From Giardia intestinalis (lineage: Eukaryota), in the NCBI GenBank assembly GCA_000002435.2, contig CM018793.1: 64,000 nucleotides of DNA; one strand, given 5' to 3'. The position numbers are program-made. Positions 18,001 to 21,000 of this stretch are shown here, one piece after another (position 1 is the stretch's first letter; every line of letters begins with the position of its first letter).

Positions 18001-21000
18001 TGTCTGGGGCTCTCGCATGAGGTCTACAGTCAGCGTGTCCCGAGCAGACTCCAGTCCTCTCTGGGTCCACACAGTCTGTCCGTGTGTGGACGGTCCTCCT
18101 GCACTCATGTCCATCTGTGCACACTGTCACTCAGTCTCGAGAGCAGACCAGTGCAGTCGCCAGGGCTGCTGTCAGAGGGAGTCGTCTGTCACTACATCGC
18201 TCGAGCAGCCCATGCAGATCAGGCTGGTTGCTGTGCACCCTCATGGCAGGGCTGTTTGACTTCCCTTGGCTATCCTCTCTGTCCCGGTGTGCACGGCTCC
18301 TGAGGGTTGTCTGGGTGGAGGCACTCACAGATCACGAGCACACAGAGGGATGAGTCACAGATGGGCAGCCCCCAGTCACCACAGCTACGATCACCTCACT
18401 CACCAAGAGGTCAGGGGCATATACAAGTACCCCCACCTCAGCCCCCACCAGCCCCACCAGCCTCACCGCCCCACCCACCAGCCGGCCCACTGAGACCCAG
18501 GTGACCGCGACTGTGGGAGCCCTGACTCGAGCCACAGCTGCCCGGACACCGAGGGCCCAGCCAGCGGAGAGCCCGGTGGCAGCCCCTGACAGACGGAGGC
18601 ATCTAAAAAAGACAGCGACCCGGGCCTCACCCACCACGAAGGAAGACCAAGGAGAGGCGCCACCGGTAGAGCAGAGGGTCTGCGAGAAGGCCTGAATCCT
18701 GGGCAGGCAGACGTGCACACACAGACTGAGCACACTTCCACAGAGCGACCGGGGAAGGTGCCAGGTTTTAGATATACTAATAAAGAGGACTCCCTAGTAT
18801 GTCGTCTACAACCAGCCATCGTCCTTGGACTGACCAGAACTTGAACGAGAATTTACTCGTGAGATCCTTGAATGCACCGCAGGCGGACCTATCAGCACAT
18901 CTACACAAGCTACGCACAGTAACGCGTTTACTACCTAAGTCTACGCCTTCCCTCTGCACACGAACCACCAGCAGAGGAACCCTATGAGGCCCCCCACGAC
19001 GACGACCACAGCGACGGAGATCCCCGCGATGGCCCCCGTGGAGAGCCCGCTCCTGTTGGCGCCAGAGGACACACACTTGCCATTGTCTAGACTGTATCCA
19101 TCAACACACTCCCCACATATATTGTCCATCACACAGCTCTTGCAGTCACTCACAGAGCACAGCACACACCCACTACCATCCTTGTTGGGCTTCTTACCAC
19201 TGTCACAGGAGGTGCACACAGCAGCAGCCATGCCAGCCCCAGTCAGAGCTGCTGGGGCTGTACACTGCGAACAGCCATCCACCCCCACATATGCCTTAGT
19301 ATCTACTAGTGTGCCTAGGGGGTTGCCACATGCCAATACAGACTGTTGAGCATTGGTTGCTTCTGGGACTACGAAGTACTTATTATTCTCACTAACAGCT
19401 GTACAGACCCCGTTGTTAGCTGTCTTGCACATATGACTACCGGGGGCCTTCGACACATCATAGCACCCTCCCATATAGAGGAAGTAGTTAGCAGCAGTAC
19501 ATGATGTACAGACACCATTGGCACATCCATTATTATTAGCCTTGTCACTAGCACAGAGACCATCAATTGGTACCTTACCACTATCTCCACAATAAGAACA
19601 ATAATGCTTTGTGGTGCCCTTATCATCTATTACGATGGCATCGCAGGCTCCAGATGTCCCCCCGCAGGCAGTATCATCTTCACAAGTCTTGGTGCATGTG
19701 AGGTCGCCAGGTTCTCCGCTGGGCCTGTAGTTGGGCTTACATTCAGTGCACTTGAAAGTATTGCCATCATTCGAGCAGACACTGCATCCATCGATGCCAC
19801 CTTTGGTTGTATCACTACATAGGACACACTCCTTTGTTCCCTGGGCATCCTTAAGGAAGTACCCCGGCATGCATTCAGTGCAGTCCTGTATGTTTCCCGT
19901 TGAGCCACACTTTGCGCAGTTTCCTGCACAGGGCTTGCAAGTGCTACTCAAGTAGAATCCAGGGAAGCATGCTTTACACACCGGCTTCTGAGAGGCTTCC
20001 TTGCTACACGTCTCGCAGTCTGCTATGCCCTGGTCGTTGCCAGACCCACTGCTATCACCGCACAGTATACACTTGGTATCTCCGTCACTTCGAAAGTGCG
20101 TCCCGTCCTGTCCGACAGTTGCGCACCCAGCAGCATCAACGCACGTTGTCGTCCCGTCGGCAGCAGTTCTTATCAGCTTCCCGTTACAATTGGTGCACTG
20201 AGGCTTCCCCGTAGCATCACTATATTCACATGCAGTGCAATCAGTTATGTCGGGATCACATGCCTTACAAGTCCAGGTCTTCTTGTCTGCGTACTGGGTT
20301 GCCTCGCATTGACCAGCATCTACACATTGATTATTCTTCAGGTACTTCCCATCCTCACACGTTGTGCACTGGCCTGCACCGGTGCAGTCTATGCATCCAG
20401 TAACGCACTTCTTACATGCTCCGTTATCTTTATAGTACCCAGCCTTGCATGTATCACATGTGGCAGCCGTTGGGGTGTTTGGTGCCATACATGTAGCGCA
20501 GCCCTCGACTCCCTTTGTCGTGCCATCTCCCACCGTGTCCCAGCAGAGGATGCACTCGCTACCAGGTTTCTGAGGTGTAACTGGGTTCTTGAACAGGCCG
20601 TTATCTGCCTTACAAGCAGTGCATACTCCGTTACTGGCCTGTGTGCATATCTCACTCCACTATCACCCTATCACTGTACAGCATTCACTACCTAAGTCTA
20701 CGCCTTCCCTCTGCACACGAACCACCAGCAGAGGAAGCCGACAAGCCCTCCGACGACGACAATCACAGCAACAGAGATCCCCGCGATGGTGCCTGTGCTG
20801 AGGCCGCTCTTGTTCATGCTGTCTCCTCCAGTGTCTCCGCCGGTGCCATCGTCAGTCTCTTGTCGCGTTATGTAGCAGATGACAGATCCTTGACCATTAG
20901 TTGGAGGAGCACAGCTTACGCAATTAGGCACACCAACTATTCCATTATCGCTATCAGCTGCACATTTGAAACACTTACCAGTACCAGTTCTATAATATCC

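What the first reader, a model, noticed from the sequence alone, without database searches (positions are those of the whole stretch)
18941..20659. The downstream member of a head-to-tail VSP pair is 5'-truncated, with no ATG, no signal peptide and no promoter
The frame encoding the 18941 VSP opens at a TAG only ~38 bp after the upstream VSP's stop, that is, inside that gene's 3'UTR and poly(A) signal. It encodes VSP-type CXXC repeats from its very first codon. The ORF track's 'M' is a GTG, and the first ATG is 15 codons further in. The C-terminal TM segment and CRGKA tail and the canonical 3' end (TAGACTTAGGTAGTAAAC) are intact. This looks like a VSP gene fragment created by unequal recombination. 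Such fragments are candidate donors for gene conversion that diversifies the VSP repertoire. A fusion read-through transcript is also possible.
Basis: seen in the sequence. Interest (0 to 1): 0.55.

Follow-up and report, generated by a model that had tools for sequence, protein, structure and literature searches.

The report
Catalogued promoterless Giardia VSP pseudogene
The flagged sequence is a real 5'-truncated copy of a Giardia surface-antigen gene sitting 38 bases behind an intact one, but this gene (vsp50, GL50803_137710) and its whole class of "linear-array" pseudo-VSPs are already published and annotated, so the finding is correct but ordinary.

Summary
The window is Giardia intestinalis WB. 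The frame opens at 20659, 38 nt after the upstream VSP's stop. It encodes VSP-type CXXC modules from the first codon. The first in-frame ATG has no signal peptide or initiator element. The TM segment, CRGKA tail and poly(A) signal are intact.

About 102-105 N-terminal codons are missing: the signal peptide and the first Cys module through GGCY.

This is not a one-off local accident. The pair is vsp49 (GL50803_41472) and vsp50 (GL50803_137710), a two-member "linear array" in Adam et al. 2010. Vsp50 is named a pVSP in work using the 2020 reference annotation.

The junction is stop, ACTTAGGTAGTGAATGC, then GTGATAG repeats, then the truncated body. The same junction recurs in VSP arrays from two other samples, one breaking within 6 nt of ours.

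Published RNA-seq shows vsp50 RNA about 100-fold below vsp49 and co-varying with it. That fits weak read-through; the two frames differ, so no fusion protein can form.

Array pseudo-VSPs keep stop-free ORFs with dN/dS of about 0.3. This fits the published, still unproven, silent-reservoir idea.

Novelty: already known. Interest is low.

The parts
20698..22461 (-). vsp49 (GL50803_41472; XP_001708033.1 / KAE8305263.1). This is the intact first member of the array: 587 aa with signal peptide MFYAVLLIGLMLEMARAAQA, TM segment, CRGKA tail and TAG stop.
   Evidence: Exact protein match. ORF. Listed in Adam 2010 Additional file 1 as 'LA X, chr 5, CAATGTT, 587 aa'. Pfam VSP E=4e-92.
22457..22463 (-). 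VSP initiator element CAATGTT around the vsp49 start codon. The downstream member has no equivalent.
   Evidence: Sequence. Inr defined as PyAatgTT in PMC2996952.
20683..20689 (-). Poly(A) signal AGTGAAT of vsp49, within ACTTAGGTAGTGAATGC. This is the array-type 3'UTR.
   Evidence: The same string occurs at every array junction in L001 and L005.
20660..20682 (-). Array junction spacer GCTGTACAGTGATAGGGTGATAG. It holds two GTGATAG units and ends in the in-frame stops TGA TAG (20665-20660).
   Evidence: GTGATAGN{0,4}GTGATA occurs once in the 64 kb, here, with 0 expected by chance. It is present at all array junctions of L001 and L005 and absent from the non-array loci L002-L004. Alignment A3.
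18941..20659 (-). vsp50 (GL50803_137710, pVSP). A 572-codon open frame plus stop, 5'-truncated. It begins at the position equivalent to residue 103-106 of full-length VSPs.
   Evidence: tblastn places P0022 residues 103-681 on 20659-18944. Alignment A2. The 515-aa ATG version equals XP_001708034.1. Adam 2010 table lists 'vsp50, clade I, LA, Inr No, 515 aa'. Named GL50803_137710-pVSP in PMC8700996.
20486..20488 (-). First in-frame ATG, the start used in the 2007 annotation. No signal peptide follows (MAPNTPTAATCDTCK...) and the context is not Inr-like.
18944..19033 (-). Conserved C-terminal TM segment (AIAGISVAVVVVVGGLIGFLCWWFV) and the CRGKA cytoplasmic tail.
   Evidence: Invariant columns in alignments A1 and A2. 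Highest hydrophobicity at aa 544-567.
18926..18932 (-). Poly(A) signal AGTAAAC of vsp50. This is the solo-type 3' flank, as found after stand-alone VSPs in L002 and L003, with no GTGATAG repeats after it.
18915..19057 (-). Conserved 3'-end direct repeat. Its partner copy is at 20672-20814 (84% identity). This is the only stretch of real similarity between the two neighbours and a plausible substrate for ectopic recombination.

Best explanation
The feature is vsp50 (GL50803_137710), a pseudo-VSP. It is the downstream member of a two-gene head-to-tail 'linear array' on chromosome 5 of Giardia intestinalis WB, behind the intact, expressible vsp49.

**Shown**
- It lacks about 102-105 N-terminal codons (signal peptide plus the first Cys module through GGCY), any usable start codon and the VSP initiator element. 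It cannot make a surface protein on its own.
- It is joined to vsp49 by the array-specific junction seen elsewhere: conserved 3' end, stop, ACTTAGGTAGTGAATGC, GTGATAG repeats, truncated body.
- Its RNA is about 100-fold lower than that of vsp49 and co-varies with it.

**Inferred**
- The unit (spacer, truncated body, conserved 3' end) arose in or was copied from a pseudo-VSP array. It was placed behind vsp49 by recombination within the conserved roughly 120-140-nt 3' region, not by a crossover between these two genes.
- The extra 17-codon shortening relative to most array members came from a deletion between a GTGATAG spacer unit and the similar coding string AGTGA(G/T)ATATGC.
- The trace RNA is read-through past the vsp49 poly(A) site and is not translated.
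- The cassette persists as a silent substrate that exchanges segments with other VSP genes over evolutionary time. This is the published 'reservoir' hypothesis. I put this last step at about 50%.

The confidence of 0.88 applies to the identity and non-autonomy claims, not to the reservoir step.
For: **Identity**
- Exact protein matches to WB entries.
- Adam 2010 Additional file 1 lists vsp49 and vsp50 as LA members with and without the Inr.
- The gene is named pVSP in PMC8700996. [quoted passage not shown]

**Truncation point**
- Alignments A1 and A2 and tblastn place it.
- There is no signal-peptide-like segment and no intron motif.

**Shared junction**
- L001 and L005 junctions and alignment A3.
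- The motif is unique in the window and specific to array loci.
- Old-annotation WB relatives begin MLYSDSDS..., which is the translated poly(A) signal plus GTGATAG spacer.

**Neighbours unrelated apart from the 3' end**.

**Expression**
- In Table S1 of PMC8700996, vsp49 reads about 11-14.6 and vsp50 about 4-6.3 on what I presume is a log2 scale.
- The mean difference is 6.8 and r = 0.76 over 35 samples.

**Coding capacity retained**
- Four array pseudo-VSP ORFs of 0.5-1.8 kb are stop-free.
- dN/dS is 0.26-0.33 at dS of about 1.0-1.3.
- The window-by-window best-match map is mosaic.
Against: - Reads do map to vsp50, and it was one of only three genes that differed between starting and excysted trophozoites. 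Independent low-level transcription is therefore not excluded.
- r = 0.76 is only modestly above its correlation with the control gene GL50803_137711 taken from the same table (r = 0.53). Most VSPs also rise together in cysts.
- dS is near saturation, so dN/dS could mainly reflect divergence that predates truncation or conversion from functional genes.
- No donor event from this cassette into an expressed VSP has been shown, here or in the papers I read.
- Giardia antigenic switching is reported to occur without DNA rearrangement (PMC2996952 background).
- I could not obtain DNA of other WB arrays, of vsp48, or of the orthologous locus in other isolates.
Confidence: 0.88

Rival explanations
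1. A one-off local event. Unequal crossing-over between the two neighbouring VSP genes, or between sister copies of this locus, deleted the 5' end of the downstream gene.
For: The two genes share a 143-nt direct repeat at their 3' ends (84% identity) that could mediate unequal exchange.
Against: - The bodies are only 31-40% identical and belong to different clades.
- The junction is not a hybrid of the two genes. It is the array-type spacer with GTGATAG repeats, also found in arrays from other samples.
- The closest relatives (up to 67% identity) that lack a signal peptide begin at or near the same point.
Confidence: 0.07
2. A sequencing or assembly artefact. The gene is really intact, and an indel or collapsed repeat hides its ATG and signal peptide.
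For: VSP arrays are notoriously hard to assemble (PMC2996952). Relative to MLYSDSDS-type relatives, the spacer is in a different frame from the body.
Against: - Only 38 nt separate the upstream stop from the ORF, so about 105 codons cannot be hidden there.
- Restoring the spacer frame would give only MLYSD(SD)n, with no signal peptide.
- No N-terminal VSP module exists in any frame nearby.
- The same vsp49 protein is in both the 2007 and the 2020 PacBio-based annotations, and the gene was renamed pVSP in the latter.
Confidence: 0.02
3. A functional gene. It is transcribed on its own or by read-through and translated from ATG 20488 or a non-AUG codon, giving a signal-peptide-less, possibly tail-anchored or intracellular Cys-rich protein.
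For: - The 572-codon ORF is intact with dN/dS of about 0.27.
- RNA is detectable and its level changes.
- The poly(A) signal and a reported miR2 target site in the 3'UTR are intact.
Against: - RNA sits near the low end of the scale, about 100-fold below vsp49.
- There is no Inr.
- The first AUG lies 171 nt into the ORF, with no signal peptide. A 70-Cys ectodomain in the cytosol is implausible.
- On a read-through RNA the ORF lies behind a complete upstream ORF.
- G. muris array pseudo-VSPs are essentially untranscribed (PMC7641422).
Confidence: 0.06
4. A pure relic. It is a discarded VSP remnant with no role, not yet decayed, and not a recombination reservoir.
For: [quoted passage not shown]
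- Giardia switching needs no DNA rearrangement.
- This array has only two members and is not in a large donor cluster.
Against: - Array pseudo-VSPs that share the truncated junction have diverged to dS of about 1 or more, yet all stay stop-free with dN/dS of about 0.3. Neutral decay would not give that.
- Similarity to different complete VSPs is mosaic.
- Published phylogenies suggest recombination or segmental conversion between VSPs and pseudo-VSPs.
Confidence: 0.3

Closest known systems
Giardia intestinalis pseudo-VSPs in linear arrays (Adam et al. 2010, BMC Genomics 11:424; Xu et al. 2020, Sci Data 7:38)
   Same: - Head-to-tail behind another VSP with a spacer of tens of bases (published mean 60 bp; here 38).
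- No Inr, no signal peptide and no proper start codon.
- Intact CRGKA 3' end; the first array member carries the Inr.
- This very gene is listed there as vsp50 / GL50803_137710.
   Different: Nothing essential. This array is minimal: one intact gene plus one pseudo-VSP. Its junction is about 17 codons shorter than the commonest GLLFMGGCY start.
Giardia muris telomere-adjacent pseudo-VSP arrays (Xu et al. 2020, Microb Genom 6:mgen000402)
   Same: Arrays of signal-peptide-less VSP copies that are transcriptionally silent and proposed as a reservoir for recombination or gene conversion.
   Different: - G. muris arrays have 5-23 members and are almost all next to telomeres.
- This one is a two-gene array. 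I could not place it on the chromosome; the window shows ordinary-length ORFs on one side (from about 28 kb on) and an ORF-poor 16 kb on the other.
- The G. muris tail is CRGK.
Silent donor cassettes of other antigenic-variation systems, recalled from general knowledge and not tested here: Trypanosoma brucei VSG pseudogene arrays with upstream 70-bp repeats, Borrelia vls, Anaplasma msp2, Neisseria pilS
   Same: Promoterless, often 5'-truncated coding cassettes, bounded upstream by a short repeat (here GTGATAG units) and downstream by a conserved 3' block.
   Different: In those systems segmental gene conversion into an expression site is demonstrated and drives switching. In Giardia switching is epigenetic or post-transcriptional, and conversion from pseudo-VSPs is only inferred from phylogeny.

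Membership tests
VSP (functional variant-specific surface protein) | N-terminal signal peptide of 14-17 aa | tested here: not met
   No in-frame Met is followed by a hydrophobic stretch: maximum KD 1.15 against 2.59 for vsp49. The ORF starts at the equivalent of residue 103-106 of full-length VSPs.
VSP (functional variant-specific surface protein) | Cys-rich ectodomain with many CXXC motifs and a GGCY motif | tested here: met
   70 Cys in 572 aa and 26 CXXC motifs. GGCY is at residue 340 of the 515-aa version. Pfam PF03302 E=6.9e-36.
VSP (functional variant-specific surface protein) | Conserved C-terminal TM helix plus CRGKA tail and an AGTRAAY poly(A) signal just after the stop | tested here: met
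VSP (functional variant-specific surface protein) | Own start codon with upstream non-coding region and Inr (PyAATGTT) | tested here: not met
   The frame opens 38 nt after the upstream stop. The first ATG context is GTATGGC. Adam 2010 table lists 'Inr: No'.
Linear-array pseudo-VSP (pVSP) | Head-to-tail behind another VSP with a very short or overlapping spacer | tested here: met
   38-nt spacer. The published range runs from overlap to 241 bp, mean 60.
Linear-array pseudo-VSP (pVSP) | Downstream member lacks Inr, signal peptide and proper start, while the first member has them | tested here: met
   The definition is in PMC7000408.
Linear-array pseudo-VSP (pVSP) | Array-type junction: AGTGAATGC 3'UTR followed by GTGATAG-type repeats. 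This feature is derived here from two other samples (three contiguous junctions in L001, two near-identical ones in L005), not from the literature. | tested here: met
Linear-array pseudo-VSP (pVSP) | Listed or annotated as such by curators | tested here: met
   vsp50 / GL50803_137710 'LA'. 'GL50803_137710-pVSP'.
Silent gene-conversion donor cassette (VSG, vls or pilS type) | Demonstrated transfer of cassette segments into an expressed gene | not testable with these tools
   Only indirect signs are available: a mosaic best-hit map and dN/dS of about 0.3 with intact ORFs.
Silent gene-conversion donor cassette (VSG, vls or pilS type) | Promoterless cassette flanked by conserved sequences that can guide recombination | tested here: met
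   An upstream GTGATAG repeat and a downstream 143-nt conserved 3' block. Their role in recombination is inferred, not shown.

The most novel reading that the evidence does not exclude
Pseudo-VSP array units are defined recombination cassettes. They are bounded upstream by the (GTGATAG)n junction repeat and downstream by the conserved TM/CRGKA/poly(A) block, in the way 70-bp repeats and the conserved 3' end bound VSG cassettes. Selection keeps them open-reading, which would explain stop-free ORFs and dN/dS of about 0.3 despite dS of about 1 or more. They donate segments to expressible VSPs such as the adjacent vsp49. On this reading the GTGATAG repeat is a functional recombination or deletion hotspot and not mere filler.
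Probability: 0.12. Interest if true: 0.6.

Novelty: already known. Interest (0 to 1): 0.15.

Why it matters
Biologically it adds nothing new at the level of the finding. WB has 208 annotated pseudo-VSPs, and this one is already catalogued, with the same 'silent reservoir or relic' hypotheses in print.

Two details may go beyond the papers I read. First, the array junctions share a GTGATAG-repeat spacer and a near-identical breakpoint across samples. Second, array pseudo-VSPs look constrained as coding sequence. If confirmed genome-wide, both would give the untested reservoir hypothesis concrete, testable boundaries.

Tried and rejected
**Searches that returned nothing useful**
- Exact-protein contig look-ups failed for vsp49, vsp50, the neighbouring HCMP-like gene and the full-length WB relative P0022. 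The WB chromosomes appear not to be indexed. As a result I could not fetch other WB arrays, the vsp48 inverted pair, or orthologous loci in other isolates.
- A scan of JGI metagenome contigs with the conserved 3'-end/junction pattern gave 0 hits. That pattern required TGA-CTTAGG and would not have matched this window's own TAG-ACTTAGG.
- L004 turned out not to be an array. It holds a differently degraded VSP next to an intact one, so I did not use it for the junction analysis. L002 and L003 served only as solo-VSP 3'-flank controls.
- Rfam (0 hits) and TRF (nothing near the locus) added nothing.

**Models considered and rejected**
- Splicing: the junction reads ...TGCACACAG|GCC, which ends like a Giardia 3' splice site. 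There is no CTRAC branch motif, other array members read GCACAGCAG there, and the only GTATGT in vsp49 is mid-gene at 21439.
- Stop-codon read-through fusion: the frames differ and four stops follow in the vsp49 frame.
- Second VSP remnant: tblastn for one that might supply the missing 5' end found only vsp49, vsp50 and the HCMP-like gene at 28.5-30.6 kb.
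Full report
**Source and identity**

The window is from Giardia intestinalis (lamblia) WB, ATCC 50803. The upstream ORF, read from its ATG (20701-22461, minus strand), is identical to XP_001708033.1 / KAE8305263.1, 'VSP'. The collection records that protein on a 4.02-Mb contig. The 515-aa ATG-started version of the flagged ORF is identical to XP_001708034.1, 'VSP [Giardia lamblia ATCC 50803]'. 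In this collection that entry is held only under the 2007 XP accession, with no KAE (2020) accession.

In Additional file 1 of Adam et al. 2010 (PMC2996952) the pair is listed as follows:

| Gene | ID | Clade | Array status | Chr | Inr | Length |
|---|---|---|---|---|---|---|
| vsp49 | GL50803_41472 | II | LA, first in array | 5 | CAATGTT | 587 aa |
| vsp50 | GL50803_137710 | I | LA | 5 | No | 515 aa |

A 2021 RNA-seq paper that uses the new reference annotation calls the gene 'GL50803_137710-pVSP'.

**Check of the observation**

- vsp49 ends CRGKA-TAG at 20700-20698.
- Next come 38 nt (20697-20660): ACTTAGGT, the poly(A) signal AGTGAAT (20689-20683), then GCTGTACAGTGATAGGG, ending in the in-frame stops TGA TAG (20665-20660).
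- The frame opens at 20659 with WSEICTQASNGVCTACKADNGLFKNPV... and stays open for 572 codons to TAG at 18943-18941.
- The ORF tool's 'M' is GTG 20533. The first ATG is 20488, 15 codons later.
- The product has 70 Cys and 26 CXXC motifs. It matches Pfam VSP at E=6.9e-36.
- It ends with the invariant TM segment and CRGKA, followed by TAGACTTAGGTAGTAAAC.
- None of the six in-frame Met residues is followed by a signal-peptide-like stretch: maximum 10-residue Kyte-Doolittle score is 1.15 or less, against 2.59 for vsp49.
- The first ATG sits in GTATGGC, not PyAATGTT. vsp49 does carry CAATGTT.

**What is missing and where the break lies**

Alignment with full-length VSPs (A2) and tblastn place the first codon of the ORF opposite residue 103 of P0022 and residue 106 of P0035. 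P0022 reads ...FLFMGGCYKTSLWSEVCT... at that point. About 102-105 codons are therefore absent: the signal peptide and the first Cys-rich module through its GGCY motif.

No such module exists in any frame elsewhere in the window apart from vsp49 itself and an HCMP-like gene on the other strand at 28455-30629. With only 38 nt between the genes, no sequencing correction could restore it. The sole intervening ATG lies inside AGTGAATGC. It reads MLYSDRVIVE* and is in a different frame from the body.

**It is an array cassette, not a local accident**

Several of the closest relatives, at up to 67% identity, also lack signal peptides. They start at or just before the same place:
- MLYSDSDSDSAMWCGGDSGGVGLFFMGGCYKTESQPGSDICT... 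(P0016; also P0029 and P0040)
- MGGCY... (P0024, P0030)
- MICTAASNGVCTAC... (P0042, P0113)

The MLYSDSDS leaders are simply translations of the upstream gene's poly(A) signal (A-ATG-C) plus a GTGATAG repeat.

DNA of two assembled array fragments from other samples shows the architecture directly (alignment A3). Each unit ends with the conserved 3' coding block, a stop and CTTAGGTAGTGAATGC. A variable number of GTGATAG-like units follows, and then a VSP body truncated at a variable point.
- In L005 the spacer runs straight into ...GGTGATA|TGCACAGCAGCC, within 6 nt of our ...GTGG|AGTGAGATATGCACACAGGCC.
- In L001 one unit keeps GLLFIGGCYKTESQPGSEICT. Another retains only the last 70 codons.

The motif GTGATAGN{0,4}GTGATA occurs once in the 64-kb window, at 20661-20674, with 0 expected by chance. 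It occurs at every array junction in L001 and L005 and in none of the non-array loci.

Stand-alone VSPs (L002, L003) and the last array member here (vsp50) instead use AGTAAAC followed by unrelated sequence.

By contrast, vsp49 and vsp50 are only 31-40% identical and belong to different clades. They share just the 143-nt 3' block at 84% identity. A crossover between these two genes therefore does not explain the structure.

My inference is that the unit (spacer, truncated body, 3' end) was imported behind vsp49 by exchange within the conserved 3' block. The 17-codon difference from the common GLLFMGGCY start would then reflect a deletion between a GTGATAG unit and the similar coding string AGTGA(G/T)ATATGC.

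**Expression**

Table S1 of PMC8700996 covers 35 samples and comes from an edgeR workflow. I presume its values are log2-scaled.
- GL50803_41472 reads 9.4-14.6. GL50803_137710 reads 3.95-6.35.
- The mean difference is 6.8 units, about 100-fold. Pearson r between the two genes is 0.76. The control gene GL50803_137711 gives r = 0.53 with vsp50 and 0.18 with vsp49.
- The paper reports the pVSP as the single gene down-regulated between starting and excysted trophozoites. In the table, vsp49 falls in the same samples.

This fits about 1% read-through past the vsp49 poly(A) site, but it does not prove it. A fusion protein is excluded, because the frames differ and four stops follow in the vsp49 frame. 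A spliced upstream exon is also unlikely. There is no Giardia branch/3'-splice motif at the junction, and the only GTATGT in vsp49 is mid-gene.

**Is the cassette maintained?**

I compared vsp50 with the array pseudo-VSPs of L001 and L005, and compared those with each other. Nei-Gojobori estimates give dS of about 1.0-1.3 and dN/dS of 0.26-0.33, and all four ORFs are stop-free.

dS is close to saturation, so this is only indicative. It is still not what long neutral decay after a shared truncation would produce.

A 40-residue sliding best-match map is mosaic:
- Residues 1-40 are 90% identical to the complete WB VSP P0035.
- Residues 181-280 are 80-85% identical to a P15 (assemblage E) VSP, while the best WB match is 62% or less.
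- Other segments match yet other genes best.

Both observations are compatible with sequence exchange between pseudo-VSPs and complete VSPs. They do not give its direction.

**Comparison with what is known**

- Adam et al. 2010 describe linear arrays holding over half of WB vsp genes. [quoted passage not shown] They hypothesise that downstream members are unexpressed cassettes for recombination, or else discarded remains.
- Xu et al. [quoted passage not shown]
- The G. muris genome paper reports silent pseudo-VSP arrays and phylogenetic evidence for recombination or segmental conversion.
- A 2022 preprint classifies pVSPs with an ORF but no signal peptide.

**Verdict**

Novelty is 'already known' and interest is low.

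I did not find two details in the papers I read: the conserved GTGATAG-repeat junction with a recurring breakpoint, and the apparent coding constraint on array pseudo-VSPs. Both rest on fragments from two other samples and should be checked genome-wide before any claim is made.

Noticed in passing
window 16385-16810 and 18474-18887, with a 1.66-kb GC-rich (0.60-0.63) centre between them: An inverted repeat of about 400 nt per arm (segments 93%, 81% and 80% complementary) starts 54 nt after the vsp50 stop. It resembles the 3' flanks and intervening DNA of tail-to-tail identical VSP pairs (Adam 2010). However, no partner VSP or poly(A) motif lies left of the left arm. It may be the remnant of a former inverted pair.
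   Followed up: partly
window 1-16400: 16 kb with no ORF longer than 116 aa in any frame and GC of 0.42-0.47, which is unusual for a genome that is about 81% coding. It fits the published remark that regions around VSPs are gene-poor (PMC7000408), but I did not determine what the sequence is.
   Followed up: partly
window 28455-30629 (+): A full-length Cys-rich membrane protein (724 aa) with a signal peptide and a VSP-like TM segment, but the tail is YRGRK instead of CRGKA (equals P0103, annotated High cysteine membrane protein Group 1). It is 50-51% identical to the vsp50 relatives P0016 and P0035. It retains the N-terminal module that vsp50 lacks.
   Followed up: partly
window 25000-27000, ORF 25599-26711 (-): A GC-rich island (0.61) carries a 370-aa ORF of Arg/Ser/Pro/Leu-rich, low-complexity-looking composition. 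It is known only from a MetaClust entry with no name. It may not be a real gene.
   Followed up: no
L001 1935-2147 (ENA k141_94899): An array member reduced to the last 70 codons (MGGCKSCVVDNICGEC...CRGKA), flanked on both sides by the same AGTGAATGC plus GTGATAG-type junction. It resembles the 224-bp vsp14 described by Adam 2010. Array units can therefore be truncated at very different depths while keeping both boundaries.
   Followed up: partly
vsp50 residues 181-280 (window about 19820-20119, minus strand): This segment is 80-85% identical to a VSP of the assemblage E isolate P15 (P0019) but at most 62% identical to any WB protein retrieved. It looks like an old segment kept across assemblages or lost from other WB genes.
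   Followed up: no
window 59272-59474: An imperfect tandem repeat (periods 6, 30 and 54; AAGGAC-rich, i.e. Lys/Asp/Glu-rich coding) lies at the end of the 57667-59508 (+) ORF. It is unrelated to the finding.
   Followed up: no
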